Positions 18,462 to 56,639 are shown, counted from the first letter of the stretch. The stretch is DNA of 64,000 nt from Trypanosoma brucei (GCA_000002445.1 CP000066.1:1184001-1248000); one strand, 5' to 3'. The notes: generated by a model from the letters alone, not told the origin. Numbers and translations are program-made.

Positions 18462-18493
<32 letters not shown>

Positions 18494-18788
18494 GTATATG
18501 TATAGATGAACCCAAGCCCGTGTCAACAAAGTTAATTCCTACCATAAACATCAGTTACGGGTGATGATATATCAATGTCATCATTGCTTTTGCCAGACGA
18601 CACTCTCCCCGCTACCATCGTTAAATGTGTCACTTCATATATATATATATATATATATAAACACGCATACGCATGTGTATACCGCTTTCTACCGCACTGT
18701 TTGCCTCAGCAATGGTTTGTGGACTTCCGGGGAGGGGGTGGTGGTACGAACTCCATCTACAGGGTTTTTTTTAAAAAAAGAAGGAGTC
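15895..18788. other. An unusually long (~2.9 kb) low-complexity intergenic region (presumably the 3'UTR of the MORN gene plus the 5'UTR of the thioesterase gene) that is strongly CT-rich on the plus strand.
   Basis: No ORF with plausible composition. There are long CT/T-rich and poly(A)/(TA)n tracts. The only listed ORFs are low-complexity artefacts such as 15861..16253. Confidence 0.5.
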
Positions 18789-28796: not shown

Positions 28797-29189
28797 GGTA
28801 GCACTCTTTTATTAAGGATAATCGATTTCTTGTGTTGAAAGTTGTGTGATTTCTGTCTGGTGCTTGAAGTTCTTACGTGATGTTTCTAGATCTTATTCCT
28901 TGCTTTCCTACAAGCTATTGCGAAAAACTGTTTGCCGGACGCGTACAAGATGATGAAGAAAAGTGTGAGCATCAGTGCAATGTTAAAGCTACACAGGCAA
29001 GTGGTGGTGCCGGAAGCCGTCGGTTTGGCACAATAACAGAGCGGATGCTCGAAAACGCATCATGGTGACCTACATATACCGACCCAGTTGGGCCTTTATT
29101 ACATCTAGTACAAGAATAAGAAAAGACTGCACAAGACATTGGCATCAAATAACTAGTTGCACTCAATTTACATAATAATTGCGGCCACA

Positions 29190-30959
29190 CTATTCGAGGC
29201 GTGCCGGTGCAGTGTTGTTTCCGATGCGGACCTGCTCGCCACCGGCACCAGAGCTGCGCAGTAAGCGCGCCCTCTTGATTTCCTCGCGTTCGGCGGCAAT
29301 CTTCACCTCCTCCTGCTTCGTCAGGTGCGAGCGGTACTCCACCATCTTGCTGCGGCGTGTAAGCACCTCCTCGTTGTTCTCGTCCACAGGGTGGTTGAAC
29401 TCGATGCCAGCAGCGTCCAGAGCCTCCTCTGACTCCTTGAACTCCTCCAACGCCTTCGCCTGCTTCTCTTTCAGCATCGCCAGCTCCTCCTCTACGCCCT
29501 GGCGCAGCCTGTATAGCTCTTTCTTCATGTCGGCGTGCTTCTTCGCATTCGGGTCGAATGTTTCCACACAGAACTCCAACTGGATGTGCGTTGTACGGAT
29601 GTTCCGGTCAATCTCCTCCATCCGCTTCTCTTTCTTGTAGATAAGAGAACCCAACGTGAGGTACAGCATGCGGAAGTACTCCAAGTGCTCTTTATGAACA
29701 TCCAAACGAAGGGCTGCAAGATCCTGGCTCGTTTTGTCGTGGCGGGCCTTCACCGCGGCACAGCCCTCCGACACCAGCTCCTCCACCAGCCCGGTACAGC
29801 GGATCGCGAGGTCGCAGTTGTACACTGTCAGCTCGAGCAGTTTCTTGTGCTGCGAGGCAACCTCCAGGAATTGAGAGTACTCCACACGTCGCTTCTCCTC
29901 GCGGTCAATCTCCTCAATCCGCCGCTTGACCTCATCGAATCGCTCCGTGCCAAGCTTCTGCAACTGCCGCTCAAGGTCCTGGATCTTGTTCCACGTCTCC
30001 TCCTGCCTATCCTCGTTCTCTCGGATGTAGCGGTCGCTTTTCTCTTTGTTCGCAGCGTGGCGCTTCGTCGCCTCGGCATCCTCAAGGTCAGCCTTCTGGA
30101 TCGCGTCGTGGATGTGCTTCAGATCTGTCTCACACCGCTGCTTCAGGCGACGCTTCGCATCCTTCATCTGACTCGTTTCCTGATTCGCCTGTTTCTGCAC
30201 CTCATGGATTTTGCTGAAGGCCTGGTTCTCCTCCTCACATTTGCTGATCAAGCGGAATTTGTCCTGAATCAGATCGATTAAGCGCTCCTGAAGCTGTACC
30301 TTCGTCCACATTTGCTCCTCGGCGACCTGCATCTCACCATCATGCATCGCAACGTTCTGGATCTCGTTCGTTTTTTCAAGCTGCGCCAACTGCGTCTTGA
30401 TCTGGTCGTCAGTTGAGGCAAGCGCATTCTGGATTTGCGTTACGTTCATGATATCCTCCACTTGCTTCAATGTCTGTGTGGGGACCTGCGCCAACTGCGT
30501 TGCATCCAGCTGCGAGCGGCGAAGCTCCTCCTCAACCTTTTCAACCTTCGCGATGGCGTTGTCGATCATCTGCGTGAAGCTCACAACACGCGTCTTGTTG
30601 CGGTTCTGACGCAGGTCCTGAAGCACCTTTTTCATGGCAATAATGTCCATGAATTGTGCCTTGTCCTCAGGGCGGTAAAGCTCGCGTTGGCTCATCTCGA
30701 GTCCACACACGCGCATCAGCTTTGCGAGGTCGTATACCTCCGTTAGGTTCCATTTCGTACCGACGTCCACAGCGGCAACCAGCTCCTCAGCCTTCAGGTG
30801 GGCGCCGCGCAGCTTCTGCCTCTGTGTCTCGCTCCAGTCAGATACATGCAATTCCTGTACAAGTTCCTCATTCTCCAAACAGGCTGTCTTCAGCTTCAGG
30901 TTGTGGATCTTCTGCTTGCGCGCAGCCTCCAAACCAGTGGCATCGTCAACTGCGGCCAT
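29190..30959 (-). CDS. PFR1: Paraflagellar rod major component, copy 3 of 5.
   Basis: Identical 589-aa translation, in a repeat unit of period 2163 bp. Confidence 0.9.
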   Translation of the reverse strand: MAAVDDATGLEAARKQKIHNLKLKTACLENEELVQELHVSDWSETQRQKLRGAHLKAEELVAAVDVGTKWNLTEVYDLAKLMRVCGLEMSQRELYRPEDKAQFMDIIAMKKVLQDLRQNRNKTRVVSFTQMIDNAIAKVEKVEEELRRSQLDATQLAQVPTQTLKQVEDIMNVTQIQNALASTDDQIKTQLAQLEKTNEIQNVAMHDGEMQVAEEQMWTKVQLQERLIDLIQDKFRLISKCEEENQAFSKIHEVQKQANQETSQMKDAKRRLKQRCETDLKHIHDAIQKADLEDAEATKRHAANKEKSDRYIRENEDRQEETWNKIQDLERQLQKLGTERFDEVKRRIEEIDREEKRRVEYSQFLEVASQHKKLLELTVYNCDLAIRCTGLVEELVSEGCAAVKARHDKTSQDLAALRLDVHKEHLEYFRMLYLTLGSLIYKKEKRMEEIDRNIRTTHIQLEFCVETFDPNAKKHADMKKELYRLRQGVEEELAMLKEKQAKALEEFKESEEALDAAGIEFNHPVDENNEEVLTRRSKMVEYRSHLTKQEEVKIAAEREEIKRARLLRSSGAGGEQVRIGNNTAPARLE

Positions 30960-31352
30960 GGTAGCACTCTTTTATTAAGGATAATCGATTTCTTGTGTTG
31001 AAAGTTGTGTGATTTCTGTCTGGTGCTTGAAGTTCTTACGTGATGTTTCTAGATCTTATTCCTTGCTTTCCTACAAGCTATTGCGAAAAACTGTTTGCCG
31101 GACGCGTACAAGATGATGAAGAAAAGTGTGAGCATCAGTGCAATGTTAAAGCTACACAGGCAAGTGGTGGTGCCGGAAGCCGTCGGTTTGGCACAATAAC
31201 AGAGCGGATGCTCGAAAACGCATCATGGTGACCTACATATACCGACCCAGTTGGGCCTTTATTACATCTAGTACAAGAATAAGAAAAGACTGCACAAGAC
31301 ATTGGCATCAAATAACTAGTTGCACTCAATTTACATAATAATTGCGGCCACA

Positions 31353-33122
31353 CTATTCGAGGCGTGCCGGTGCAGTGTTGTTTCCGATGCGGACCTGCTC
31401 GCCACCGGCACCAGAGCTGCGCAGTAAGCGCGCCCTCTTGATTTCCTCGCGTTCGGCGGCAATCTTCACCTCCTCCTGCTTCGTCAGGTGCGAGCGGTAC
31501 TCCACCATCTTGCTGCGGCGTGTAAGCACCTCCTCGTTGTTCTCGTCCACAGGGTGGTTGAACTCGATGCCAGCAGCGTCCAGAGCCTCCTCTGACTCCT
31601 TGAACTCCTCCAACGCCTTCGCCTGCTTCTCTTTCAGCATCGCCAGCTCCTCCTCTACGCCCTGGCGCAGCCTGTATAGCTCTTTCTTCATGTCGGCGTG
31701 CTTCTTCGCATTCGGGTCGAATGTTTCCACACAGAACTCCAACTGGATGTGCGTTGTACGGATGTTCCGGTCAATCTCCTCCATCCGCTTCTCTTTCTTG
31801 TAGATAAGAGAACCCAACGTGAGGTACAGCATGCGGAAGTACTCCAAGTGCTCTTTATGAACATCCAAACGAAGGGCTGCAAGATCCTGGCTCGTTTTGT
31901 CGTGGCGGGCCTTCACCGCGGCACAGCCCTCCGACACCAGCTCCTCCACCAGCCCGGTACAGCGGATCGCGAGGTCGCAGTTGTACACTGTCAGCTCGAG
32001 CAGTTTCTTGTGCTGCGAGGCAACCTCCAGGAATTGAGAGTACTCCACACGTCGCTTCTCCTCGCGGTCAATCTCCTCAATCCGCCGCTTGACCTCATCG
32101 AATCGCTCCGTGCCAAGCTTCTGCAACTGCCGCTCAAGGTCCTGGATCTTGTTCCACGTCTCCTCCTGCCTATCCTCGTTCTCTCGGATGTAGCGGTCGC
32201 TTTTCTCTTTGTTCGCAGCGTGGCGCTTCGTCGCCTCGGCATCCTCAAGGTCAGCCTTCTGGATCGCGTCGTGGATGTGCTTCAGATCTGTCTCACACCG
32301 CTGCTTCAGGCGACGCTTCGCATCCTTCATCTGACTCGTTTCCTGATTCGCCTGTTTCTGCACCTCATGGATTTTGCTGAAGGCCTGGTTCTCCTCCTCA
32401 CATTTGCTGATCAAGCGGAATTTGTCCTGAATCAGATCGATTAAGCGCTCCTGAAGCTGTACCTTCGTCCACATTTGCTCCTCGGCGACCTGCATCTCAC
32501 CATCATGCATCGCAACGTTCTGGATCTCGTTCGTTTTTTCAAGCTGCGCCAACTGCGTCTTGATCTGGTCGTCAGTTGAGGCAAGCGCATTCTGGATTTG
32601 CGTTACGTTCATGATATCCTCCACTTGCTTCAATGTCTGTGTGGGGACCTGCGCCAACTGCGTTGCATCCAGCTGCGAGCGGCGAAGCTCCTCCTCAACC
32701 TTTTCAACCTTCGCGATGGCGTTGTCGATCATCTGCGTGAAGCTCACAACACGCGTCTTGTTGCGGTTCTGACGCAGGTCCTGAAGCACCTTTTTCATGG
32801 CAATAATGTCCATGAATTGTGCCTTGTCCTCAGGGCGGTAAAGCTCGCGTTGGCTCATCTCGAGTCCACACACGCGCATCAGCTTTGCGAGGTCGTATAC
32901 CTCCGTTAGGTTCCATTTCGTACCGACGTCCACAGCGGCAACCAGCTCCTCAGCCTTCAGGTGGGCGCCGCGCAGCTTCTGCCTCTGTGTCTCGCTCCAG
33001 TCAGATACATGCAATTCCTGTACAAGTTCCTCATTCTCCAAACAGGCTGTCTTCAGCTTCAGGTTGTGGATCTTCTGCTTGCGCGCAGCCTCCAAACCAG
33101 TGGCATCGTCAACTGCGGCCAT
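31353..33122 (-). CDS. PFR1: Paraflagellar rod major component, copy 4 of 5.
   Basis: Identical 589-aa translation, in a repeat unit of period 2163 bp. Confidence 0.9.
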   Translation of the reverse strand: MAAVDDATGLEAARKQKIHNLKLKTACLENEELVQELHVSDWSETQRQKLRGAHLKAEELVAAVDVGTKWNLTEVYDLAKLMRVCGLEMSQRELYRPEDKAQFMDIIAMKKVLQDLRQNRNKTRVVSFTQMIDNAIAKVEKVEEELRRSQLDATQLAQVPTQTLKQVEDIMNVTQIQNALASTDDQIKTQLAQLEKTNEIQNVAMHDGEMQVAEEQMWTKVQLQERLIDLIQDKFRLISKCEEENQAFSKIHEVQKQANQETSQMKDAKRRLKQRCETDLKHIHDAIQKADLEDAEATKRHAANKEKSDRYIRENEDRQEETWNKIQDLERQLQKLGTERFDEVKRRIEEIDREEKRRVEYSQFLEVASQHKKLLELTVYNCDLAIRCTGLVEELVSEGCAAVKARHDKTSQDLAALRLDVHKEHLEYFRMLYLTLGSLIYKKEKRMEEIDRNIRTTHIQLEFCVETFDPNAKKHADMKKELYRLRQGVEEELAMLKEKQAKALEEFKESEEALDAAGIEFNHPVDENNEEVLTRRSKMVEYRSHLTKQEEVKIAAEREEIKRARLLRSSGAGGEQVRIGNNTAPARLE

Positions 33123-33515
33123 GGTAGCACTCTTTTATTAAGGATAATCGATTTCTTGTGTTGAAAGTTGTGTGATTTCTGTCTGGTGCTTGAAGTTCTT
33201 ACGTGATGTTTCTAGATCTTATTCCTTGCTTTCCTACAAGCTATTGCGAAAAACTGTTTGCCGGACGCGTACAAGATGATGAAGAAAAGTGTGAGCATCA
33301 GTGCAATGTTAAAGCTACACAGGCAAGTGGTGGTGCCGGAAGCCGTCGGTTTGGCACAATAACAGAGCGGATGCTCGAAAACGCATCATGGTGACCTACA
33401 TATACCGACCCAGTTGGGCCTTTATTACATCTAGTACAAGAATAAGAAAAGACTGCACAAGACATTGGCATCAAATAACTAGTTGCACTCAATTTACATA
33501 ATAATTGCGGCCACA

Positions 33516-35285
33516 CTATTCGAGGCGTGCCGGTGCAGTGTTGTTTCCGATGCGGACCTGCTCGCCACCGGCACCAGAGCTGCGCAGTAAGCGCGCCCTC
33601 TTGATTTCCTCGCGTTCGGCGGCAATCTTCACCTCCTCCTGCTTCGTCAGGTGCGAGCGGTACTCCACCATCTTGCTGCGGCGTGTAAGCACCTCCTCGT
33701 TGTTCTCGTCCACAGGGTGGTTGAACTCGATGCCAGCAGCGTCCAGAGCCTCCTCTGACTCCTTGAACTCCTCCAACGCCTTCGCCTGCTTCTCTTTCAG
33801 CATCGCCAGCTCCTCCTCTACGCCCTGGCGCAGCCTGTATAGCTCTTTCTTCATGTCGGCGTGCTTCTTCGCATTCGGGTCGAATGTTTCCACACAGAAC
33901 TCCAACTGGATGTGCGTTGTACGGATGTTCCGGTCAATCTCCTCCATCCGCTTCTCTTTCTTGTAGATAAGAGAACCCAACGTGAGGTACAGCATGCGGA
34001 AGTACTCCAAGTGCTCTTTATGAACATCCAAACGAAGGGCTGCAAGATCCTGGCTCGTTTTGTCGTGGCGGGCCTTCACCGCGGCACAGCCCTCCGACAC
34101 CAGCTCCTCCACCAGCCCGGTACAGCGGATCGCGAGGTCGCAGTTGTACACTGTCAGCTCGAGCAGTTTCTTGTGCTGCGAGGCAACCTCCAGGAATTGA
34201 GAGTACTCCACACGTCGCTTCTCCTCGCGGTCAATCTCCTCAATCCGCCGCTTGACCTCATCGAATCGCTCCGTGCCAAGCTTCTGCAACTGCCGCTCAA
34301 GGTCCTGGATCTTGTTCCACGTCTCCTCCTGCCTATCCTCGTTCTCTCGGATGTAGCGGTCGCTTTTCTCTTTGTTCGCAGCGTGGCGCTTCGTCGCCTC
34401 GGCATCCTCAAGGTCAGCCTTCTGGATCGCGTCGTGGATGTGCTTCAGATCTGTCTCACACCGCTGCTTCAGGCGACGCTTCGCATCCTTCATCTGACTC
34501 GTTTCCTGATTCGCCTGTTTCTGCACCTCATGGATTTTGCTGAAGGCCTGGTTCTCCTCCTCACATTTGCTGATCAAGCGGAATTTGTCCTGAATCAGAT
34601 CGATTAAGCGCTCCTGAAGCTGTACCTTCGTCCACATTTGCTCCTCGGCGACCTGCATCTCACCATCATGCATCGCAACGTTCTGGATCTCGTTCGTTTT
34701 TTCAAGCTGCGCCAACTGCGTCTTGATCTGGTCGTCAGTTGAGGCAAGCGCATTCTGGATTTGCGTTACGTTCATGATATCCTCCACTTGCTTCAATGTC
34801 TGTGTGGGGACCTGCGCCAACTGCGTTGCATCCAGCTGCGAGCGGCGAAGCTCCTCCTCAACCTTTTCAACCTTCGCGATGGCGTTGTCGATCATCTGCG
34901 TGAAGCTCACAACACGCGTCTTGTTGCGGTTCTGACGCAGGTCCTGAAGCACCTTTTTCATGGCAATAATGTCCATGAATTGTGCCTTGTCCTCAGGGCG
35001 GTAAAGCTCGCGTTGGCTCATCTCGAGTCCACACACGCGCATCAGCTTTGCGAGGTCGTACACCTCCGTTAGGTTCCATTTCGTACCGACGTCCACAGCG
35101 GCAACCAGCTCCTCAGCCTTCAGGTGGGCGCCGCGCAGCTTCTGCCTCTGTGTCTCGCTCCAGTCAGATACATGCAATTCCTGTACAAGTTCCTCATTCT
35201 CCAAACAGGCTGTCTTCAGCTTCAGGTTGTGGATCTTCTGCTTGCGCGCAGCCTCCAAACCAGTGGCATCGTCAACTGCGGCCAT
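33516..35285 (-). CDS. PFR1: Paraflagellar rod major component, copy 5 of 5 (the most upstream copy in the transcription unit).
   Basis: Identical 589-aa translation. It carries one synonymous difference from the other copies near 35051 (GTA to GTG, Val). Confidence 0.9.
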   Translation of the reverse strand: MAAVDDATGLEAARKQKIHNLKLKTACLENEELVQELHVSDWSETQRQKLRGAHLKAEELVAAVDVGTKWNLTEVYDLAKLMRVCGLEMSQRELYRPEDKAQFMDIIAMKKVLQDLRQNRNKTRVVSFTQMIDNAIAKVEKVEEELRRSQLDATQLAQVPTQTLKQVEDIMNVTQIQNALASTDDQIKTQLAQLEKTNEIQNVAMHDGEMQVAEEQMWTKVQLQERLIDLIQDKFRLISKCEEENQAFSKIHEVQKQANQETSQMKDAKRRLKQRCETDLKHIHDAIQKADLEDAEATKRHAANKEKSDRYIRENEDRQEETWNKIQDLERQLQKLGTERFDEVKRRIEEIDREEKRRVEYSQFLEVASQHKKLLELTVYNCDLAIRCTGLVEELVSEGCAAVKARHDKTSQDLAALRLDVHKEHLEYFRMLYLTLGSLIYKKEKRMEEIDRNIRTTHIQLEFCVETFDPNAKKHADMKKELYRLRQGVEEELAMLKEKQAKALEEFKESEEALDAAGIEFNHPVDENNEEVLTRRSKMVEYRSHLTKQEEVKIAAEREEIKRARLLRSSGAGGEQVRIGNNTAPARLE

Positions 35286-43813: not shown

Positions 43814-45331
43814 CTAATATGCTCTGCCTCGGTCAAGATTTGGAGGCGACCACTCATTAACGATAAGTTCGGGGAAAACATTAGGTTTCAAAGTTGAAGT
43901 ACCAAGAAGCATATTGACACACTCTTGGAACCCTTGGGTTATTGCAGGGTAAGCTGTATGGAGCTGACTCAGGTTATAAATCGATTCGCGATTATGAATT
44001 GCCAATGAAGCCAACTCAATAATGCTGCTTGCATGCGGTCCAACAGCTCGCACACCAAGAACCTGCATTTTGTGATCATTTGTAACGATAAGCTTCACAA
44101 AACCGCTCGTATTGCCCATTGCGAGGGCCCGACCCACAAATTCATAACCGTACCTGGCCACCTTGTATGCTATGTGTTCCTTCCTGCATTGTTGCTCATT
44201 GCGACCTACAGCGGCCACCTCCTGATCAAGAAACATAATCGTCGACAGATTGTCCAGGCGTTGAATAAGTTCTCCCTCCGGATATGGACGATACATATGC
44301 TCAATACAGGAACGCGCTTCCAACTCCCCAACGTTAACAAGCGCCACCCTTGAGCCGACATCACCACACGCATAAATATGCTTGTGTGGAACAACGCAAT
44401 AAAACTGGTCACGCTGGATTCGACCCTGCTTCAACTCAACACCGATTTTGTCGAGTCCAATGCTACCCACATTTGGATCCCTTCCTATTGAAACCAACGC
44501 CTTGTCGACCACGTGGTCTGTTAGCCTGTTGTCTCTCAAATCACGCAGCGTGTAACGGAATTGGCCGCCCTCCACCTTGTTGCTTTGCAAAGCAGAATGG
44601 TGGTGAAAATTGACCATCTTTGCCTCCAGGAGCTTCTGAACGAAGAGAGCAACATCATCATCTTCCATTGGCAATATTCGATTAGACTTTTCAATAACAT
44701 TTACTTCGGTAAGTCCAAAGTTCGCAAATATCGATGCAAACTCACATCCTATAACGCCAGCGCCGATAATGACAATGCTTTTCGGAAATGGTTGAGTCAT
44801 TATATCATCGGAAGTGAAGACAACCTCACCGTCGGCAATTACGGAAGCATGTTTACGAGGTTGAGCGCCGCACGCAATGACAAAGTAGTCGGCCCGTACC
44901 TCCTCAATGCCTCCACCCAACAGTTTAACATCGACACTGTGAGGTGACGTAAATGACCCATGACCACATATAACGTCAACGCTAACCTTCTCAAGCTGAT
45001 GAAGAATCTGGCCGTGACGGAACTCTGCTGCGCAATCTATTGATTTCTTAATATTCGAAAAATCAATACATGGGAGAGCTTGACGGCACTTCATAAAACG
45101 ATTGGCGGTTTGGCCGTTCATAAGGCGGACGAATTTTGCCATTTCCCATAACGTCTTCGACTGTAGCGCACCGTTCCAAAGGTCAGCACCTCCAATCCGT
45201 GATGACTCGATTATGCAAGCCCTTTTTCTATAATCCACAGCCCGCAACGCGGCGGCCACTCCTGCAGGTCCTCCCCCTATGACACAAACATCCACATTTT
45301 TCGCCCAGCTGAGCCGGGTTTTAGCAAACAT
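43814..45331 (-). CDS. Dihydrolipoamide-dehydrogenase-like flavoprotein lacking the redox-active disulfide (a 'point-mutant' LipDH paralogue, likely a pseudoenzyme).
   Basis: The 505-aa ORF has an FAD-binding GxGxxG motif (VCVIGGGPAGVAAA), an NAD-binding GxGxxG motif (IIGAGVIGCEF) and a C-terminal dimerisation region with a His...Glu pair. The canonical GGTCLNVGCIPSK active-site box is replaced by GGADLWNGALQSK, so both cysteines are lost. Confidence 0.6.
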   Translation of the reverse strand: MFAKTRLSWAKNVDVCVIGGGPAGVAAALRAVDYRKRACIIESSRIGGADLWNGALQSKTLWEMAKFVRLMNGQTANRFMKCRQALPCIDFSNIKKSIDCAAEFRHGQILHQLEKVSVDVICGHGSFTSPHSVDVKLLGGGIEEVRADYFVIACGAQPRKHASVIADGEVVFTSDDIMTQPFPKSIVIIGAGVIGCEFASIFANFGLTEVNVIEKSNRILPMEDDDVALFVQKLLEAKMVNFHHHSALQSNKVEGGQFRYTLRDLRDNRLTDHVVDKALVSIGRDPNVGSIGLDKIGVELKQGRIQRDQFYCVVPHKHIYACGDVGSRVALVNVGELEARSCIEHMYRPYPEGELIQRLDNLSTIMFLDQEVAAVGRNEQQCRKEHIAYKVARYGYEFVGRALAMGNTSGFVKLIVTNDHKMQVLGVRAVGPHASSIIELASLAIHNRESIYNLSQLHTAYPAITQGFQECVNMLLGTSTLKPNVFPELIVNEWSPPNLDRGRAY

Positions 45332-46711
45332 TAAAATTATTCGGTAAACCTGATACGATAGCAGGGAAATAATTAGCGGAAGTAAGAGTTTTTCTCAGGC
45401 AGAAGCGACAGAAAGTTAAAATACGCAGCTGAGGGTTATCGTAGAGAGTCAGATGAGCACATATATTTATCTTATGGGAAGTCAAATGGCACACACTGAA
45501 GGAAAGCAGCAACACAAACACCCTATTATACCACTTCCTTCCTCTCAGCGGTGCTTCTAAAACCATTCCCCTTCACTCCCTCCTCCTAGAGCGGACGCGA
45601 CCAGGTGCAAGAGAACGAGAAGGAAAGGCGCAGCGGGCAGATCTGGCCATCCGGACGAGAACACACTAAGCATCCTGACTGAAAACGGCGGTGCTAAGCG
45701 ACAGTGAAGGTGAAAAAAAGAACCACAACAGCAGTGTTACAGCAGACAGCGACACGCATGCAAATTTCGCTTTGCAAGTCAAAGGTAATGGGGAGCGAGG
45801 GGAGTTGGCAAGCGTCCACCGGTAGTGTGGAGCGCGAGGCCCGCGCAGTTCGCCCCACCCTCCATTAACCAGGCCAAACGAGCCAAACAAATCGAAAGGG
45901 GGAAAAGCACGACCACTCCTGAGAGCGACAATATTGCACCCAACCCTTCACACACATCCGTACGGAACCGGAGGCTGCATGAAATTCCGCCTACGGTCAG
46001 CCCAGCATCGGGAATATGGCTCAGCACCGCGCACCCAGCGGTCCCGCCCAGCCCCGCAATAATTCTAAGCAGCGGTCACCGCCCCGACGCCCCCATCACA
46101 TACTTCACCGTCCGAAAGCAAGGAAGCGGCCAGACGTACGTTCAGGCGGACGGGCGGCAACATAGCGCACAAAACCCGGGAGGGTAGTTCAACCGAAGGA
46201 AGCAGCTTCCTCCTCCCCCACCGGAGTCGACGTCAGCATCAAACGAGGAGGAAAACAAAGGAAGACCGGCACCATGCGGCCCCTCGAAAAGAGATATGTG
46301 CGGCGGGTGGTCAAAGCACCCGCGCAAGGAACATAATACTGCAAAGGGCTTTTAGCCCTTTAACGGGCGAGCACAGCCGGTCGGGTATATGACGACGGGC
46401 AAGGGGGCGGCGGATCTGTCCCTAAGAAACGCCGAAGCCATCTTTCACACTCCAGTGCCGCAACAACGCGGTTCCCCCGGGAGTGGGTGGGGCCCGTTTC
46501 TCAGCATGATTTTCCCTCGCCCGAACCCCACTTCGGCTCACTGACGAAAGCCTTTCCGCGCACAGACACCAACAAGAAGCACGACGCGGCAGAAAATCGT
46601 CACAGACGACCACGTAACGGTCTAGCGAACCACTTACACAGTTCCCTTCTTCGAGGGGTAATCCCTTCAGAGAGCCCCTCCTCAGCGGATATCACATAAC
46701 CAAGAGCCAGT

Positions 46712-46859
46712 TCAGTGTCTCACGCCCTTGTTTCCTGGGGGGAAAAAAGCATTGGGAGGGGGCGCGCTACTCGACTTCCCCGGCGCTGGTGGTGGTGACA
46801 AAGCGGTGCCCCCTCCCAATGCTTTTTTCCCCCCAGGAAACAAGGGCGTGAGACACTGA
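46712..46859. repeat. Perfect inverted repeat (palindrome) with 52-nt arms (46712-46763 and 46808-46859) separated by a 44-nt spacer.
   Basis: The reverse complement of 46712-46763 (..agtgtctcacgcccttgtttcctggggggaaaaaagcattgggagggggc) equals 46808-46859 exactly, by manual base-by-base comparison. It sits in a GC-rich, ORF-free region. Confidence 0.85.
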
Positions 46860-49523
46860 GGTGAAGGAGAACCTTCTGGATGCCCCTCCGAAGTGACCTG
46901 CTAACGACCCCACCGAATAACCGCCTACAGACCCCACTAATAAGCAACTGCCGCACCTTTTCGTTTGGTAACTGTTGATGCGGAGAGTGCGTTTCAACCC
47001 CAACTCCATTTGGCCTGAGGAAGCGGAAAGCATCATTTTGAAGAGGAGAGAAATGTTGACAAGCGCTGTCGTTCTAAGAGGGCAGGCCTAAATACAGTCA
47101 CTATCGAAGGGAGGGGTCACCTGCATAGAGGGCAAAAAACAAATTTGTTCAAGGAAAACCAACCAATCCGAACGATTTTTGATTCTCAAGGGTAAAAAAT
47201 CATCGATACAGCATCACGGATGATATCTAAATTCTTCCTTCGCGCCGTAAAGGGAACCCATTTGGCATCTCTACTGACATTTTCACTGTGTATTCAAGTC
47301 ATCCGTTATTTGTTTATTTATTTTAGAAACGATACACACTTACAAGCGGAGCGCGGCGTCACGTTTTCACCTTAACTCAGCAAGTGCAGGCCCTCTACAA
47401 CCGGAGGTTTGGAAGGGGGCGTTTCGTTTCGTTTGTGCACACCATCCTGCAGGAAAGCATGCCCCTCCACCCTTTCGTACAAAGGTCCGCGCACCACATA
47501 CAGCAAAACCAAGGGTCGAGCCCCCTCCTCTCCCCAACACACACGTAACATTTCAACATGTCGCTGGAAAATGATGCCCAAGGGCAATATATTGGAGGAG
47601 ATCCATTCCTACCAGTTGGATCACCCGAACCCTAACAAAAGCCGGCCACCTTTCTGGGGAATCAGCCCTTGAGTCACCCTCGGCGGCGGATGCAGGTTCC
47701 CTCGAACGTCAGGGAGGAAATCTGCAAAAAAAAAATGTAGTTTTACTCCACAGATCTCTGAAGGTTGATCAAACACACCGCTGTTGAGTTTTCTTTCTGT
47801 TATACAAATGCCCATCGTTGGTGCCATAACTTTCGCCTCCCCAAAATGGAGTGCGCTCTGATGCCACAGGCGTTCTGAGTTCCGCATCCCTAGCAACGGC
47901 TCCCAACCTATTTTCCGCGTGAGGATGGGCACAATTTCAAGGTCACGCAGAGCATACGCCCATAGTGCCTCTTTATTCTGTTTTCAAGAACACTGCGTTC
48001 GCTGGGGGCTATTACCCACATTAGCTCACCCAGTGGTCTTTGTTCTTCGTCCTTCACTTGAAAAATATCACTCTGGGAGCGCCTTTCCATTTGAGGCGTG
48101 TAGTTGTGTTAATGACCGGTTTATCCGGGACTGTGAAAGAACAGGCTTTGCGATCATGATGAGGGAGGCTAAGATTGGTGTTGATGGGCGGAAAATTCCC
48201 TCGCGATGCCGGCCACCTCATCATGGGTCTAGGGTCCAGTACACCATCTCATCGGGTTAAGCCAAGAGCCAGCAGCGTTCTTCTCCAGGGTAACACTGCT
48301 CTGCCCGGCTGCGGCATCATACAGCACAGGGATCAGCAGCGTCTTGCTGGGACACCGCTTTTCATTTGTCGGTCCCTGGGTGTGTGCCAGTGTGCCATCA
48401 GCGGCAGAACGGATGGTGTTTTCCTTGAAAAAGCTGTGCGTCTATTTTTCCGCAACCGTTTCAGCACTGCGATGGAAAGAATATTGAAAAAAAGTGTTTA
48501 ACAACAAGCTTAAGAGGAAAACTCAGTGATGAACAGTGTTGGCGATGGTGGAATTGTCTGTGCTCGTTGATTGTTGTGTGCATTGTGCGAGTGATAAAAG
48601 CGTGTTTTATCTACATGTTTCTTCCGTGCGTTCGTTTCCTTCAATATTATGCACTCTAGCCTTTAGGCGAAAGCCTAAGCATCCGCGCAGTTTCCGCACA
48701 TACCGCAATTTACACTCGTTATTTTTGGTTGTGTACTCGTTGCCGACGGCTGGAAACTCTGAGTGTGAAGAAATCGGGAATCTCTGTGGGGCCCGTGCTC
48801 TTGGACGTAATCTCACCGTTTGTGAAAAGAGCGCCTTCATTGCGGAGATCGGGTGGCCTAGTGGAATGAAAATGGTCAACACGTACCACTTCCCCCACAC
48901 AGGGACAAAAACGTGGTAGTTCCAGAGAGCGATCTGGGCAACAAATATAACCTTGCACAAGGAAGCTCTTTTTCACGGCATGCGCAACTTTTTTCTTTGT
49001 TTGAAGGATGCGGGTGCAAAGTTCGAACAGGTACGTCAAAGGCTTATGCGGGATGTCACTCTGTCCTTCGAAGGACCTTTCTCGTTCCGATACCAGTGCG
49101 CCAAAAACGAAACTTACGCGGAAACGCCTCCACGCGCAAACCTCTTCTCGCGGCGCCAGCTGTTGGGGAGACGGCAACGTCAACTAAGTAAAGGCCTCAA
49201 ACCCGACGGCAGCGGAACGAAAACAGGAACCGACGCCACGCATTCGGACGCCAGCCCCGGCGCTGCTGACCCGTCTCTTTTGAAGCAACACAAATCAAAA
49301 ATTTAAATAACAAGAACTTTGTCACGAGGTTAATTTTTCTCTCCGGAGCGGTTGTTGATTTAGAGCAGTTGCCTGAAGTCATGGTTAAGGGGTTCGGTTC
49401 CCCGGTCATCTGTCGTTTTTTCCATAAAGCGCTTTTCTCAGAGCCTTCGGCCGGCGTCGTGTAGCATACATAAATATAAGTACGTCAAATTTTAGTAAAT
49501 TTAGTAAAGAGGTCGGCGCACGT

Positions 49524-49604
49524 GTCACCATACCCAAGTGGTTACGGGGACTGACTAGAAATCAGTTGCGATCTCGCGCGCAGGTTCGAATCCTGCTGGT
49601 GACG
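49524..49604 (+). tRNA. tRNA-Ser (anticodon AGA), class II with a long variable arm.
   Basis: Cloverleaf fold: acceptor GTCACCA/TGGTGAC, D-arm CCC-AAGTGGTTAC-GGG, anticodon stem ACTGA/TCAGT with loop CTAGAAA, 13-nt variable arm, T-arm GCAGG-TTCGAAT-CCTGC (B box), discriminator G, followed by T6 at 49605-49610. Confidence 0.88.
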
Positions 49605-49610
49605 TTTTTT
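49605..49610 (+). terminator. Pol III oligo-T terminator for tRNA-Ser(AGA).
   Basis: TTTTTT immediately 3' of the discriminator base. Confidence 0.7.
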
Positions 49611-49809
49611 CGTCAATTCCCCGTGTTCCGCTGCTTTTGTCCAGTCAACTTTTTTCCGTAACAACAGCGATTGGGAATTGGGAAACGGTACGCGCACCAC
49701 AGGCCAGTTGTGACCACCAAGCAACACAGAGACGCCGCGGAGGACGGACAGCGTTGGGCAACACCGCTCCGAAGGGTGAAAACAATCAGCCGATTTGGGT
49801 GCGAAAAAG

Positions 49810-49891
49810 TGACAAGAGTGGGGTTTGAACCCACGCCTACGAATAGAAGAGAACTTGAGTCTCCCGCCTTAGACCACTCGGCCATCTTGCC
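49810..49891 (-). tRNA. tRNA-Leu (anticodon CAA), class II.
   Basis: The reverse complement gives GGCAAGA-TG-GCC-GAGTGGTCTAA-GGC-G-GGAGA-CTCAAGT-TCTCT, a variable hairpin (CTA-TTCG-TAG), GTGGG-TTCAAAC-CCCAC, TCTTGTC and discriminator A. A T5 run on the coding strand (A-run at 49804-49808) follows the 3' end. Confidence 0.88.
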
Positions 49892-49950
49892 ATCGACGGC
49901 CACAACAGATTTGTTTTAGACACTTTTTTTATTTATGCAATGCCAAAAAC

Positions 49951-50031
49951 CGTCACCAGCAGGATTCGAACCTGCGCGCGAGATCGCAACTGATTTCGAG
50001 TCAGTCCCCGTAACCACTTGGGTATGGTGAC
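49951..50031 (-). tRNA. tRNA-Ser (anticodon CGA), class II. It is identical to the plus-strand tRNA-Ser except for a single anticodon base.
   Basis: The reverse complement equals the 49524-49604 sequence except that anticodon loop CTCGAAA replaces CTAGAAA. A T5 run on the coding strand (A-run at 49945-49949) follows the 3' end. Confidence 0.88.
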
Positions 50032-53000
50032 ACCGCCTCGCCACCACCTCTCAAATGCGTTACCCTTGCACAAGCGATCGATGCCGTGATTTTTTTGTGC
50101 GTTTCTGTGCGATGCGGAGTGTGAAGCGGTTGGTGGTGGTTTGCCGTCCTCCAACGGACGGCCGCCAGTCACTTGTCGTATGAGCCGATAAAGCTGCGCC
50201 GGAGTTTTCCTGGAAGTCCTCTCTGAACAATATAACTGTGGGATGTGGACGCAGAAATTTGTAGGGCTTAAAGTCACGGCGTCAAGTTGCAGTGCCAGTC
50301 GTTGATGGGCGGGCCACCATCGGATAAGAAGGGTGGGGGACACTACGCGCCACAGAACAGCACTATGAGACTATAAAAATGAGGTAAAGCCGCACATGAG
50401 CTTGTTGTAGTCACTCAGTTATGTGGTGGAGCGTCTCACGAGTCGGCGCGGTGGCCATGGCAAATGGAAAGGACATTGGATCATCACAGTACCATTACAA
50501 GTGCACATCTTTCGGTGCTTTGTTTTGGAGTTAAAGAAGATGGAAGAGTCGGAAAATTTTCTTCAATTTAACACCACTAACTCAGTGCTCTTGAGCTTCA
50601 CTATCAACAGTTTCCGTTTGTGGCTCGTGTGTCCCAAGTGTCCACAAGGTTTGTACGCCTCGGGCCTCTCGGAACAGTAACGTGCCTGCGGATTGTGGAG
50701 AAAAAGTGGATAGTAAAATTAATGAATGTAGGGAGAACACGCCCTATGTACTGATTTTTTGTGAGCTTTTTTCTCGTGTTAGAGACTCACCCGCTCAAGT
50801 TACTGCATTCTTCAGGCTATGGGGAAGGCCATATTCAAGAAAATTGGCTGTGTGAACAGCAGCTGCCTCTGAATAGAGCAGGTGAATCACCGATTGGGCC
50901 TCCATGACTTTCCCACGGTGGGGAACATAAGAATTCCACATATTAATGTCCACGGAGCCGTGCAGATAGGCGTTTTTATGTTCCTAAAAACCTACTAGCG
51001 TCAACCGTGTTGGCACAACAGCGTTGAAGCCGTCTCTAGAGTCTCCGCTGTGGGGAGTAATCGGCGTTTACTTTCCTGTGAGATGCCCGTTCACCTCCAT
51101 TATTTCACGACATCAAAAAAAAAAACGTTCCAAACTTGGTTATGTGGATACTTAATGTTCAAGGGGTCAAGTACACGGGTCGAAAGTTTCATCGTTTCAA
51201 AAAATTTATTACCAGCAATGTTAGGTGTGTATTGAACTGTTTTTTCCGGGAAAAGTTGGTAAATGAATCTGTCATAGGGAAACTTGCCACCTTCACCAGC
51301 CCATTCTGAACAACAGCCCCCAGCATGTAGATTTTGAAATACGCATTGTTTTCCACGGGATTCGCACCGGTTTCTTCTGCGCGCCTTTGTGTTTTCGCTT
51401 ATCGCTCTGAAAGTCACATTTTTTTGTGGAAACATCTGCATGGTTCCCCTCGATTATTTCTTCGGTCCGGGCGCCGCATGTGCGTGAATTTCTGTCGATG
51501 TGTGTCCCAACAGTTGGATTGCCTCTTCAGTCTTTACTGAACCTTGTTGACTTCTACGTGCGCTGCGTGGGTTGCCTGCAGCGTGCTTAGGGTCATTTTA
51601 CCTTGGGATGCTCTCTGTTCCCGTGCCGAAGTGACGGCTGTAGTTGAACCGTTGTAATGAGCTTAAATGATCCTTTGCTGCGTGTCCAAAATGCTCAAGT
51701 ACTATGGACGCCCCACCCCCTGGGATGAAGTTGCCACACCAAGAGCACCGGCCACGATTACTCGTGCGGATGAAGCCGCGGACTTCCCACCGATTTGAAT
51801 GTCACCGTACTTATGGTCGTGTTGGGCGCCGTTGGCGTCTTACAAGCCACCAGCACTTTGACTCATGATGTTCCAGCGTCTTGTGTTTCATTTCCCGGAG
51901 TACTGGTTTTATCTGCTCTACTATACCAAATGTATGCGGTTGCTGCGATCCACGTGAGAAAATACGAACTGCGGTGCGCACTGCGTAAGTCTGTCTAGTC
52001 AAAGCTTTTATTTGGCCCTTTTCGCCGCATTTTCCGCTTGTAAAAAAAGTTGATCTCGGCACACTTTGTTTTACTTTCTCTAAATATTGCTCCAGTCAAT
52101 ATGTTTGGAGTCTTCTGCAGCCTCTTTCCCTATTTTTGGTGCCTTTGAATATTCTCGTCCAGCTAGTTTTTCTCTTTTTTTATTTTCTCTGGCTAGTCTC
52201 GCCTTTTCTCCTTCATAAATTAACTTATATAATTGGCGTTCTGCAGTTGCAAGTTTGTTGGTACTCTCGTTTATTCCGCTGCTTTTCTGGAGTATATCTT
52301 CCCTCCATCCTCATTTTTCCTACGTTCTCGTTTTTGCTGGACCACTGTAGTTGAACGCCGTTGTAATTTTCCTAACATCTGTTGAAACCCATTGAAACTT
52401 CATTGTGATCTCCACTCTCATATAGGTTGTGAAATTTGACAAGTCTTCTAAACATCGACTCACTGCCTTCGTTCGTGTCGGTTTCACGGGTATTGTGTCG
52501 CTTCAGTGGTGCAACCTGGCACTTGTGCGTGCGTGTCTGCTAAAAAATTTGTTTTCTCAACACAGAGAAGTGCTGGCATGGACTAGGTGCGTGGTGAAAC
52601 TACTAACCTACGTTGTTTTATTTTTTTTTGTTAAGTTATAAAAGGAAATCTGGAAAATTTGAAAGGTTATAAGATTCTGGCACAGTTGCCTCCTTTGTGT
52701 CTCCGATGTGCTGGTCAAGTCCTCCATGACTGTGCTCAACTGAATCAAGTATCATCTCTAAGTTTAGAAACGTCGCTACGATTCAAGAAAATGGCTTTCC
52801 CCCAGTTTGATTGCTTTTGCCGCTTCGGAAATGAAGTTGGTGGTGGCCGTCCATGGTCGAAACCTTTACTGGCGTATGCGTTTCTGCCCTTCCAAGCAGT
52901 CAAGTCGCTGAGCTACCACTCACCCCCTATTACGTTGCACACTCCATAGTAATGTCAGGGCCCATATTCCAGATGAGAGGGAAAACCGAGCGTGTTCATC

Positions 53001-55475: not shown

Positions 55476-56639
55476 TCATACGTCCTTCACTGCCCCTACC
55501 TCCGTCCTGAGTGATTGATGTCGCAAAGCGACATCCTCCACCTTGTAGAACTCCTTCTGCACAAGGTTGTCAAGCGCGTCGGCCACCAGGGCTTTCTGCG
55601 ACAACTGGGACCTGAGTTTCTTGCATTCCATGTCCGCCTGGCAGCTTATACGACTGATGCGTGCGCTAAGGTCGGCCCGACCATTATGTAGTTGCTCGAC
55701 ATCTGAAGATATTACCTCCACGTGTTGTTTTACACGCTGAAGGTTTCGAGTAACCCACTGTCTTGTCGTTTCTATTTCTTCCATGAGCAATGCCCGCGCC
55801 TGCTTCGCCTCGTTACCTAAAGTCACCACGGTGCCCGCAGTCTTGTCAACCTTTTGCTCCAGCGAACTGAGCGACTGGGTAATACCGTCAATTTTTTCTT
55901 GAAGCGGTGGAACCCGTGAATAATCCCGTCCTACTGACATCTCCAAATCCCTTAAAGAGCTTTCCACGAGCCGTAATTTTTCACGAAGGGTATCTTGCGC
56001 CTCTTGCCTTGACAAGTCCTTCTGCTCCGCCTCGCCCCACAGGGATGCGATCCGCTCCTCCACATCTCTTCTCACGTCACTCACTGTGTTTTCTATGCGT
56101 TGTTTCGTTCGTGCCGCTTGCTCTTCTCCGTCGGCTCGGATCTTCGCCAGATCACTCAAAAATGCTTGGTGGGCATCTTCTAATGTTTCCTGTACCTTGG
56201 AAATGATGAATTGTTTGAATGTTTCCATATCCTCTAACCTTGCACAGGCCTGCTCTAACCGTTTTAACCGCGACAGCAGCTCCTGCTGCTGAAACCTGAT
56301 GTCGGCCTCCTTTTCCTCTTGGATTCCTTGGGCTAGTTTCACCAACTTCGTAAGGTTCACCATTTTTTCATCGAACATACACACGCGGGCGGAGAGCTCC
56401 TCTACTCGATCAAGCAACTGCTGAACAGAGAAGGCGCCCTTCAACATCCACTCCACTCGTGACTCGGCGGCTGAGTCCACCTGTGCCGACCTTAAGGGCT
56501 CTTGAGGAGATACACTTTCCTTCTTTCGTGGCCGCAAATATATGTCAGTGTAGTCCATCGCTCGCACTGCGTCGGACAATCGTCTTGTTATGCTTTCCAA
56601 AAATAACAAAAGTAATGTAAAAGAGATGTGGGAGAGCAT
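55476..56639 (-). CDS. Hypothetical coiled-coil protein. The true start may be the internal Met (MDYTDIY...).
   Basis: The 387-aa ORF is dominated by heptad-like E/K/R/L/Q-rich sequence with no recognisable catalytic motif. It fits the same-strand gene run. Confidence 0.45.
   Translation of the reverse strand: MLSHISFTLLLLFLESITRRLSDAVRAMDYTDIYLRPRKKESVSPQEPLRSAQVDSAAESRVEWMLKGAFSVQQLLDRVEELSARVCMFDEKMVNLTKLVKLAQGIQEEKEADIRFQQQELLSRLKRLEQACARLEDMETFKQFIISKVQETLEDAHQAFLSDLAKIRADGEEQAARTKQRIENTVSDVRRDVEERIASLWGEAEQKDLSRQEAQDTLREKLRLVESSLRDLEMSVGRDYSRVPPLQEKIDGITQSLSSLEQKVDKTAGTVVTLGNEAKQARALLMEEIETTRQWVTRNLQRVKQHVEVISSDVEQLHNGRADLSARISRISCQADMECKKLRSQLSQKALVADALDNLVQKEFYKVEDVALRHQSLRTEVGAVKDV

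What the first reader, a model, noticed from the sequence alone, without database searches (positions are those of the whole stretch)
46712..46859. Perfect 52-bp inverted repeat with a 44-bp spacer in a GC-rich, ORF-free segment upstream of a transcription-unit start
By manual comparison the arms 46712-46763 and 46808-46859 are exact reverse complements (52/52 matches). A palindrome of this length will not arise by chance, and it could extrude as a cruciform or form a ~148-nt hairpin RNA. It lies in the GC-rich 45.6-47 kb segment just upstream, in transcription sense, of the first gene of the downstream minus-strand unit. That is the place where kinetoplastid Pol II initiation zones lie. Possible roles are a foldback or TIR-like transposon remnant, a structured ncRNA precursor, or an initiation or barrier element.
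Basis: seen in the sequence. Interest (0 to 1): 0.6.

Follow-up and report, generated by a model that had tools for sequence, protein, structure and literature searches.

The report
Unstable DNA hairpin repeat in trypanosome
The perfect 52-bp inverted repeat is real and lies in a low-abundance non-coding transcript at the start of a Trypanosoma brucei gene array, but related genomes show it flipped or partly deleted, which suggests a self-perpetuating replication by-product and gives no sign of a functional element.

Summary
Arms 46712-46763 and 46808-46859 are 52/52 complementary around a 44-nt spacer.

The window is T. brucei TREU927 chromosome 3, Tb927_03_v4 1,184,001-1,248,000, so the repeat sits at 1,230,712-1,230,859.

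Published RNA-seq (Kolev 2010) makes the downstream gene, Tb927.3.4390, the first ORF of a Pol II unit "next to tRNA". It also places the repeat inside a 1,678-nt low-abundance trans-spliced transcript, Tb3.NT.54.

Three Trypanozoon genomes carry three structural alleles:
- **TREU927:** the full repeat.
- **T. equiperdum IVM-t1:** the same arms, with one substitution mirrored on both arms, and the 44-nt spacer exactly reverse-complemented.
- **T. b. gambiense DAL972:** a 95-nt deletion between two GGAAA 5-mers, leaving a 24-bp stem.

T. vivax, T. theileri and T. cruzi keep the tRNA-adjacent boundary but have no such repeat.

I found no target-site duplication, no second copy in the sequence held, no Rfam family and no conserved ORF. 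The one published small-RNA survey I checked lists no locus at this position.

Best reading: a lineage-specific DNA palindrome kept perfect, flipped and eroded by replication template switching and slippage. This is a known mutational process. Interest is low to moderate.

The parts
46712..46763 (.). Left arm of the inverted repeat (52 nt). It contains G6A6 and G-rich runs.
   Evidence: 52/52 complementary to 46808-46859. T. equiperdum and DAL972 have CATGCC where the window has CACGCC.
46764..46807 (.). 44-nt spacer (the hairpin loop). It is not self-complementary.
   Evidence: Only 10 of 44 positions match its own reverse complement. The T. equiperdum spacer is the exact reverse complement (44/44) while both flanks keep their orientation.
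46808..46859 (.). Right arm of the inverted repeat (52 nt).
   Evidence: It carries the mirrored change GGCGTG -> GGCATG in T. equiperdum and DAL972.
46741..46745 (+). GGAAA 5-mer in the left arm; left end of the DAL972 deletion.
   Evidence: Deleting the 95 nt between the GGAAA copies at 46741 and 46836 reproduces the 53-nt DAL972 allele, apart from 4 substitutions.
46836..46840 (+). GGAAA 5-mer in the right arm; right end of the DAL972 deletion.
45442..47120 (-). Published novel transcript Tb3.NT.54 (Tb927_03_v4 1231120 -> 1229442, 1,678 nt, abundance value 0.25). It is trans-spliced and polyadenylated, and it contains the repeat.
   Evidence: Kolev 2010 Tables S7 and S12. The coordinate offset of +1,184,000 comes from two gene coordinates. 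An AG preceded by a pyrimidine-rich tract sits immediately upstream of 47120 on the minus strand.
43814..45331 (-). Tb927.3.4390, a dihydrolipoamide dehydrogenase-like gene. It is the first annotated ORF of the transcription unit. Its major splice acceptor is at window 45349.
   Evidence: Pfam Pyr_redox_2 and Pyr_redox_dim. Identical to the TREU927 protein. Kolev Tables S12 and S14. AG at the acceptor site.
49523..50032 (.). tRNA cluster: Ser(AGA) on +, Leu(CAA) on -, Ser(CGA) on -. It marks the boundary between the upstream and downstream Pol II units.
   Evidence: ARAGORN and Rfam. A tRNA-adjacent boundary is also present in T. vivax, T. theileri and T. cruzi.
55476..56639 (-). Tb927.3.4400, last ORF of the upstream unit (Tb927.3.4890 -> 4400).
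   Evidence: Kolev coordinates 1240639-1239476 and Table S14.

Best explanation
The feature is a lineage-specific DNA palindrome with 52-bp arms and a 44-bp loop. It lies in the non-coding, transcribed 5' stretch of a T. brucei chromosome 3 Pol II unit.

I propose that it persists and changes through DNA-level hairpin dynamics and not through selection for a function. Four steps make up the proposal, and all are inferred:
1. When the region is single-stranded, at replication forks or under the R-loops typical of unit starts, each strand can fold back on itself.
2. A polymerase that switches template between the arms copies one arm from the other. This keeps the arms identical and spreads any new substitution to both arms.
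3. An intermolecular template switch that starts in the first arm and returns in the second inverts the spacer. This produces the two orientations seen.
4. Slippage or microhomology-mediated joining across the stem deletes the centre.

Because the repeat is transcribed, the hairpin should also form in Tb3.NT.54 RNA and could be cut by Dicer. I regard that as a by-product.

Shown: the structure, its position in a published transcript and unit, and the three alleles.
Inferred: the template-switch and slippage mechanism, and the lack of function.
For: - **Spacer flip.** The T. equiperdum spacer equals the reverse complement of the window spacer at 44/44 positions, with both flanks collinear.
- **Mirrored arm change.** CACGCC/GGCGTG in the window becomes CATGCC/GGCATG in both T. 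equiperdum and DAL972. The regional mismatch rate is 0.95%, so an independent complementary hit at the mirror site has a probability of about 0.003.
- **Microhomology deletion.** The DAL972 allele is exactly a 95-nt deletion between GGAAA direct repeats that the stem brings together. It leaves a 24-bp stem and a 5-nt loop.
- **Known process.** Arm homogenisation and spacer inversion are the two published outcomes of template switching at inverted repeats (PMC8604942). The abstracts listed say template switching can create and maintain hairpins (PMC8794818) and that RNA:DNA hybrids promote quasi-palindrome mutations in transcribed yeast DNA (PMC3820800). Hairpin-associated small inversions are common in plastid genomes (PMC12371153).
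- **No conservation.** T. vivax, T. theileri and T. cruzi keep the tRNA-adjacent boundary but have no long inverted repeat there.
- **No sign of function.** There is no Rfam family at gathering score, no Pfam hit, and an ORF end that differs in all three genomes. No siRNA locus is listed at this position.
Against: - Only three genomes were available, with one assembly per allele.
- The DAL972 deletion could have arisen in E. coli clones during sequencing; that route and DAL972's sequencing method are from my own knowledge and were not checked here.
- The 1-nt homopolymer differences in T. equiperdum could be long-read errors.
- The mirrored substitution lies at a CpG, so two parallel transitions are possible, though unlikely.
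- Perfect arms and a paired substitution are also what selection on an RNA or DNA hairpin would give. One compensatory event cannot separate selection from mechanical homogenisation.
- A 44-nt spacer is much longer than the 2-5 nt spacers documented for yeast spacer inversions.
- The position in a Pol II start region leaves room for a cis-acting role that sequence analysis cannot exclude.
- Genome-wide copy number could not be checked.
Confidence: 0.6

Rival explanations
1. It is a hairpin-RNA gene. The 52-bp perfect stem in Tb3.NT.54 is processed by the nuclear Dicer DCL2 into siRNAs loaded on AGO1, which regulate this transcript or targets elsewhere.
For: The repeat lies inside a mapped Pol II transcript, and the minus-strand RNA folds at -124.4 kcal/mol. 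T. brucei makes siRNAs from large inverted repeats (PMC3447711). The low abundance value of Tb3.NT.54 (0.25) would fit destabilisation. The mirrored arm change keeps pairing intact.
Against: The AGO1-IP survey lists 7 large inverted repeats, none on chromosome 3. Its chromosome 3 entries are three convergent regions, the nearest about 100 kb away at 1.121-1.132 Mb. Its miscellaneous list, which goes down to 84 reads, has no chromosome 3 locus. DAL972 lacks the central 95 nt, which removes the spacer and 28 nt of each arm. There is no counterpart in T. vivax, T. theileri or T. cruzi, and no second copy of the arm that could serve as a target in the sequence held. Arm mismatches give a G-U wobble on the sense strand in T. 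equiperdum but on the antisense strand in DAL972, so they show no strand-consistent RNA constraint.
Confidence: 0.13
2. It is a cis-acting element of the Pol II start region or unit boundary. Examples would be a cruciform or hairpin that excludes nucleosomes, a binding site for a dimeric factor, a pause or barrier element, or a replication-origin-associated structure.
For: It lies in the start region of a unit 'next to tRNA' and in the most GC-rich part of that stretch. Start regions of head-to-tail boundaries carry H2A.Z and R-loops in general.
Against: It lies at least 261 nt downstream of a used splice-acceptor site, so at least some initiation occurs upstream of it. It is absent from the same conserved boundary in three other Trypanosoma species. 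DAL972 has lost two thirds of it. The spacer orientation is not fixed. A 44-bp spacer disfavours cruciform extrusion from duplex DNA (established knowledge, not tested here).
Confidence: 0.08
3. It is a remnant of a foldback or MITE-type DNA transposon with 52-bp terminal inverted repeats.
For: The element is short (148 bp) and consists almost entirely of terminal inverted repeats. It is lineage-specific.
Against: There is no direct repeat flanking the arms: the left flank ends ...GCCAGT and the right flank starts GGTGAA.... No other copy occurs in the 64-kb window or in about 58 kb of unrelated Trypanozoon loci, L003-L005. The shortened DAL972 allele is an internal microhomology deletion, not an excision footprint or an empty site. 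No DNA transposons are known in T. brucei (my own knowledge, not tested).
Confidence: 0.04
4. The repeat is real, but part of the apparent polymorphism is technical. The DAL972 deletion may have arisen in E. coli clones, and the T. equiperdum flip or homopolymer changes may come from long-read assembly or polishing.
For: Long palindromes are hard to maintain in E. coli clones and cause sequencing problems (abstract of PMC4057610, listed). Each allele rests on a single assembly. The G6A6 to G5A6 and G6A5 changes are in homopolymers.
Against: The DAL972 remnant carries two extra substitutions, including one at the new loop. That suggests age rather than a fresh cloning event. A 148-bp structure is spanned by single reads on either platform (my own reasoning; the platforms were not checked). 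An exact 44/44 reverse complement between collinear flanks is not a typical polishing error. The mirrored substitution is shared by two independent assemblies.
Confidence: 0.15

Closest known systems
Template-switch mutation at inverted repeats (quasi-palindrome correction and spacer inversion; Ripley model; yeast survey PMC8604942; hairpin creation and maintenance PMC8794818)
   Same: It shows both signature outcomes: the arms are kept identical, with a substitution present on both arms, and the spacer is exactly reverse-complemented between close relatives while the flanks stay collinear.
   Different: The scale is much larger: 52-bp arms and a 44-bp spacer, against 7-16-bp arms and 2-5-bp inverted spacers in the yeast cases. 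The site is non-coding, in a trypanosome Pol II start region. The mechanism here is inferred from three alleles and was not observed.
Hairpin-associated small inversions in plastid genomes (Kelchner & Wendel 1996; reviewed in PMC12371153)
   Same: The loop of a stem-loop in non-coding DNA flips between closely related taxa while the stem is conserved. The reported size range of 4-50 bp includes 44 bp.
   Different: This is a nuclear, diploid, linear chromosome, not a multicopy organelle genome. The stem is unusually long and GC-rich.
Large inverted repeats IR1-IR7 of T. brucei that yield siRNAs (Tschudi 2012, PMC3447711)
   Same: Same organism, near-perfect arm identity, and potential for fold-back dsRNA. 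The authors also speculated about hairpin-based maintenance.
   Different: Those arms are 422-10,011 bp long and have documented AGO1-bound siRNAs. This repeat has 52-bp arms, is not in their tables, and has no reported small RNAs.
Microhomology-mediated or slippage deletion across palindromes (palindrome instability, reviewed in PMC7999016)
   Same: The DAL972 allele is a central deletion between 5-nt direct repeats that the stem brings together. It shortens the palindrome but does not abolish it.
   Different: Whether the deletion arose in the parasite or in E. coli clones is unknown.

Membership tests
Template-switch / hairpin-associated inverted repeat with spacer inversion | The spacer is the exact reverse complement between close relatives while the arms and flanks are unchanged. 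| tested here: met
   44/44 reverse complement. The spacer is not self-complementary (10/44). Flanks are collinear.
Template-switch / hairpin-associated inverted repeat with spacer inversion | Arm homogenisation: changes appear on both arms at mirrored positions. | tested here: met
   C->T on the left arm and G->A at the mirror site on the right arm, in T. equiperdum and DAL972. The chance of an independent mirror hit is about 0.003. This is a single event, so the evidence is limited.
Template-switch / hairpin-associated inverted repeat with spacer inversion | Direct observation of the switch: recurrent flips within a lineage, or both orientations in reads from one clone. | not testable with these tools
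   No read-level or population data were available.
Foldback / MITE DNA transposon | Target-site duplication flanking the terminal inverted repeats. | tested here: not met
   The flanks...GCCAGT | arms | GGTGAA..., share no direct repeat.
Foldback / MITE DNA transposon | Multiple dispersed copies in the genome. | tested here: inconclusive
   There is no other copy in the 64-kb window or in 11 fetched loci, including about 58 kb of unrelated Trypanozoon sequence. The whole genome could not be searched.
Foldback / MITE DNA transposon | Presence/absence polymorphism with a clean empty site. | tested here: not met
   All three Trypanozoon genomes keep the outer 24 bp of both arms. DAL972 has an internal 95-nt microhomology deletion.
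Hairpin-RNA / miRNA-like small-RNA precursor | A transcribed, stable stem-loop. | tested here: met
   It lies inside Tb3.NT.54. The minus-strand RNA folds at -124.4 kcal/mol, z = -16.8.
Hairpin-RNA / miRNA-like small-RNA precursor | Dicer-dependent small RNAs mapping to the stem. | tested here: inconclusive
   The published AGO1-IP tables list no locus here. Raw reads could not be mapped, so low-level production is not excluded.
Hairpin-RNA / miRNA-like small-RNA precursor | Match to a curated RNA family, or conservation across species. | tested here: not met
   Rfam gives only sub-threshold miRNA-model hits, 22-33 bits against gathering scores of 60-105. No counterpart was found upstream of the orthologous gene in T. 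vivax or T. theileri. Only 665 bp were available for T. cruzi.
Pol II transcription start region of a T. brucei polycistronic unit | Location upstream of the first ORF of an experimentally defined unit. | tested here: met
   Kolev 2010 Table S14 gives the unit Tb927.3.4390 -> 4020, 'next to tRNA'. The repeat is 1.38-1.53 kb upstream of that gene's ATG, after coordinate mapping.
Pol II transcription start region of a T. brucei polycistronic unit | The element itself is needed for initiation (promoter activity, H2A.Z deposition). | not testable with these tools
   This needs reporter or deletion experiments. Sequence evidence argues against necessity: the element is absent in other species and truncated in DAL972.
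Site-specific invertible switch (recombinase-driven, as in bacterial phase variation) | A dedicated recombinase and short recombination sites flanking a functional invertible segment. | tested here: not met
   No protein family matched any of the ten gap ORFs scanned. The 44-bp segment carries no recognisable gene or motif. The resemblance is limited to the flip itself.

The most novel reading that the evidence does not exclude
The repeat is a recurrent flip-flop element in a Pol II start region. Its spacer orientation, which places either an AC-rich or a GGTGGTGGTG (GT-rich) tract on the sense strand of Tb3.NT.54, together with its Dicer-cleavable stem, would modulate initiation, directionality or the stability of the first transcript of the unit. 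That would make it a heritable, reversible cis-switch in an organism thought to lack gene-specific Pol II control.
Probability: 0.04. Interest if true: 0.75.

Novelty: new member of a known kind. Interest (0 to 1): 0.3.

Why it matters
As a functional element it matters little. It is not conserved, one subspecies has lost most of it, and no small RNAs from it are reported.

Its value is as an unusually large example of inverted-repeat template switching in a nuclear protist genome: arm homogenisation, a 44-bp spacer flip and a microhomology deletion all at one site.

It could serve as a neutral structural marker for Trypanozoon lineages. It could also be a natural reporter of hairpin-driven instability at R-loop-rich transcription start regions in trypanosomes.

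It is also a caution for annotation. Perfect palindromes in start regions should not be read as promoters or RNA genes without comparative evidence.

Tried and rejected
1. **Link to the siRNA locus CTU7 of Tschudi 2012 (Tb927_03_v4 1,120,900-1,132,400).** At first this looked as if it might be the 10-kb gene-free gap. Coordinate mapping through Kolev 2010 gene positions puts the window at 1,184,001-1,248,000, so CTU7 is about 100 kb away, at the convergent end of this unit. Rejected.
2. **More Trypanozoon alleles.** Exact-protein look-ups for the TREU927 / T. equiperdum OVI versions of the dihydrolipoamide dehydrogenase and folliculin-like proteins found nothing on record. A 10-20-kb contig seen in the counts was never returned.
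3. **T. congolense.** No T. congolense orthologue of either neighbouring protein appeared in the protein searches. The closest outgroup available was T. vivax.
4. **Logan short-read assemblies.** I did not pursue these. A 52-nt perfect inverted repeat exceeds the assembler's k-mer length (about 31, from memory), so contigs could not resolve spacer orientation.
5. **Rfam at permissive threshold.** It gave only weak matches to generic miRNA hairpin models.
6. **Pfam scan of ten ORFs in the gap, including the two that cross the repeat.** No hits.
7. **Coding hypothesis for the first-ATG ORF of Tb3.NT.54.** Rejected, because its C-terminus differs in all three genomes: 89, 104 and 73 aa.
8. **GT-richness of the sense strand as a promoter signature.** It is only slightly raised, 0.56-0.61 against 0.524 with sd 0.057, so it is not informative.

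Full report
**1. The observation**

Reading the sequence and an independent repeat search both give arms at 46712-46763 and 46808-46859. They are 52 nt long, 100% complementary, and separated by 44 nt.
- The 52-mer matches only these two places in the window, with none in 100 dinucleotide-preserving shuffles.
- Across all 64 kb, the only other long inverted repeats are the two tRNA-Ser genes and low-complexity TA or poly-A tracts.
- The 148 nt fold into one long hairpin. As RNA the + strand gives -134.5 kcal/mol, z = -16.1. The transcribed minus strand gives -124.4 kcal/mol, z = -16.8. As single-stranded DNA it gives -77.4 kcal/mol, z = -17.1.
- The surrounding 45.8-47.0 kb is moderately GC-rich: 0.55-0.64 against a window mean of 0.489.

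**2. Where this is**

All ORFs of 180 aa or more that match known proteins or lie in the collinear gene array are on the minus strand. A 10-kb gene-free gap (45.3-55.5 kb) holds three tRNA genes at 49.5-50.0 kb. The flanking genes include a five-copy paraflagellar rod array and a dihydrolipoamide dehydrogenase-like gene.

Nine window proteins are identical to Trypanozoon database entries, eight of them to TREU927 chromosome 3 entries. One, the BRCT protein, matches TREU927 alone.

Gene coordinates in the supplements of Kolev et al. 2010 (PMC2936537) fix the offset:
- Tb927.3.4400, at 1240639-1239476, is window 56639-55476.
- Tb927.3.4350, at 1223262-1220869, is window 39262-36869.

The window is therefore Tb927_03_v4 1,184,001-1,248,000, and the repeat is at 1,230,712-1,230,859. 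As a check, the two splice-acceptor positions taken from that paper, window 47120 and 45349, each fall directly after an AG preceded by a pyrimidine-rich tract on the minus strand.

**3. Transcriptional context, from published data**

Kolev Table S14 lists the Pol II unit 'Tb927.3.4390 -> Tb927.3.4020, minus strand, next to tRNA', and the upstream unit 'Tb927.3.4890 -> Tb927.3.4400'. The paper reports enrichment of 5'-triphosphate reads at such tRNA-adjacent unit starts.

Table S7 also lists a novel trans-spliced, polyadenylated transcript, Tb3.NT.54. It runs 1231120 -> 1229442 on the minus strand, is 1,678 nt long, and has an abundance value of 0.25. In window coordinates that is 47120 -> 45442.
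- The repeat sits 261-408 nt from its 5' end.
- The repeat is thus transcribed sequence inside the start region, downstream of at least part of the initiation.

**4. Comparative evidence**

Look-ups of neighbouring proteins returned the orthologous locus from T. equiperdum IVM-t1 (L001; 98.9% identical over 19.9 kb) and T. b. gambiense DAL972 (L007). Three genomes give three structural alleles.

- **(a) T. equiperdum.**
  - The arms are kept, at 51 nt each. One substitution appears on both arms at mirrored positions: CACGCC -> CATGCC and GGCGTG -> GGCATG.
  - The 44-nt spacer is the exact reverse complement of the window's spacer while both flanks stay collinear.
  - The spacer is not self-complementary (10/44), so this is a true flip.
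- **(b) DAL972.**
  - The site is 53 nt long, with 24-nt arms and a 5-nt loop.
  - Deleting the 95 nt between two GGAAA 5-mers at 46741 and 46836 reproduces it exactly in length.
  - Four substitutions remain, two of which are the same mirrored pair seen in T. equiperdum.
- **(c) The window.** It has the full repeat with the C/G state.

With a regional mismatch rate of 0.95%, an independent complementary hit at the mirror position has a probability of about 0.003. The arms therefore evolve in concert.

Further out, the three tRNA genes lie upstream of the orthologous gene in T. vivax, and tRNA-Ser(AGA) lies upstream of it in T. theileri and T. cruzi. None of the three has a comparable inverted repeat, although only 665 bp of upstream sequence were available for T. 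cruzi. The unit boundary is old; the repeat is specific to Trypanozoon.

**5. Tests of the proposed roles**

- **Transposon remnant.** There is no flanking direct repeat, no second copy in the window or in 11 fetched loci, and no empty site.
- **RNA family.** Nothing reaches gathering score. At a permissive threshold there are only generic miRNA-hairpin hits of 22-33 bits against cut-offs of 60-105.
- **Coding.** The ten gap ORFs scanned, including the two that cross the repeat, have no Pfam match. The first-ATG ORF of Tb3.NT.54 ends differently in each genome: 89, 104 and 73 aa.
- **siRNA source.**
  - Tschudi et al. 2012 (PMC3447711) surveyed AGO1-bound small RNAs and large inverted repeats. 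Their 7 inverted repeats are not on chromosome 3.
  - Their chromosome 3 entries are three convergent regions, the nearest at 1.121-1.132 Mb, about 100 kb away.
  - Their miscellaneous list has no chromosome 3 locus.
  - Low-level processing cannot be excluded without mapping reads.
- **Strand-specific RNA constraint.** The single arm mismatch in T. equiperdum is a G-U wobble on the sense RNA. The one in DAL972 is a wobble on the antisense strand. There is no consistent signal.

**6. Mechanism**

Arm homogenisation and spacer inversion are the two documented outcomes of DNA polymerase template switching between inverted-repeat arms.
- An intramolecular or intermolecular switch copies one arm from the other.
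- An intermolecular switch that begins in the first arm and returns in the second inverts the spacer (PMC8604942).
- By their abstracts, the same process has been proposed to create and maintain perfect hairpins (PMC8794818), and RNA:DNA hybrids promote quasi-palindrome mutations in transcribed yeast DNA (PMC3820800).
- In plastid genomes, hairpin-associated small inversions of 4-50 bp are common between close relatives (PMC12371153).
- In T. brucei, R-loop signal peaks upstream of the first gene at head-to-tail boundaries (PMC6294496). This would leave the non-template strand free to fold. That step is an inference for this locus.

The DAL972 deletion between 5-nt direct repeats brought together by the stem fits slippage or microhomology-mediated joining across a hairpin. 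It could have arisen in the parasite or in E. coli clones.

My best explanation, at confidence 0.6, is a lineage-specific palindrome that is maintained, flipped and eroded by these DNA-level processes, with no dedicated function. RNA hairpin formation and possible Dicer cleavage would be by-products.

**7. Limits**

- There are three genomes, with one assembly per allele.
- No T. congolense sequence was available, and no whole-genome search or read-level data were possible.
- A single mirrored substitution cannot separate mechanical homogenisation from selection on pairing.
- A cis-acting role in the start region cannot be excluded from sequence alone. Loss of the centre in DAL972 and absence of the repeat in other species argue against necessity.

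**8. Verdict**

The positional interpretation is supported by published transcript maps, but none of the proposed functional roles is.

What is there is a new, unusually large example of a known mutational phenomenon. It is of moderate use as a marker of hairpin-driven instability at a trypanosome transcription start region.

Interest 0.3. Novelty: new member of a known kind.

Noticed in passing
window 49522-50033; L008 1208-2415: The two tRNA-Ser genes (AGA on +, CGA on -) form an 89-nt, 98% inverted repeat, with tRNA-Leu(CAA) in the 334-nt spacer. In T. brucei, Leu lies 58 nt from Ser-CGA on the same strand. In T. vivax, Leu lies 65 nt from Ser-AGA on that gene's strand. This is the arrangement expected if the segment between the inverted Ser genes had been flipped. 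It would be a second inversion bounded by an inverted repeat in the same gap, on a longer time scale.
   Followed up: partly
L010 162-242; L011 6747-6995; L008 1208-2415: A tRNA-Ser(AGA) gene lies just upstream of the dihydrolipoamide dehydrogenase orthologue in T. cruzi Dm28c (about 0.4 kb) and T. theileri (about 1 kb). The three-tRNA cluster is present in T. vivax. The tRNA-adjacent unit boundary therefore predates the split of these species. The 4.2-kb stretch between the tRNAs and the gene in T. brucei, including the GC-rich block, has no long inverted repeat counterpart in the other three species.
   Followed up: partly
window 46767-47036 (minus strand): The first ATG of transcript Tb3.NT.54 opens an 89-aa ORF that runs through the right arm and into the spacer. 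Its end differs in T. equiperdum (104 aa) and DAL972 (73 aa). It has no Pfam match and is very unlikely to be a real protein.
   Followed up: yes
window 24864-35285: Five tandem copies, with a 2,163-bp period, of a 589-aa paraflagellar rod protein gene. Each copy carries a spurious 248-aa ORF on the opposite strand. In DAL972 the copy adjacent to the diphthamide synthesis gene is called at only 508 aa, possibly an assembly problem in the array.
   Followed up: no
window 16000-18700 and 5720-5790: Low-GC stretches (0.33-0.36) with long (TA)n, (CA)n and poly-A/T tracts between genes. These account for most of the other inverted-repeat hits in the window.
   Followed up: no
window 48175-49306 (+) and 51100-51441 (-); L007 2093-5354: The DAL972 annotation calls four short hypothetical genes (105-124 aa) inside the gene-free gap, three of them on the opposite strand. 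Three of the four corresponding window ORFs were scanned and have no Pfam match (48175-48501 was not scanned). Judging by consecutive protein accessions, the TREU927 record appears to have no counterparts. If taken at face value they would create spurious strand-switch regions.
   Followed up: partly
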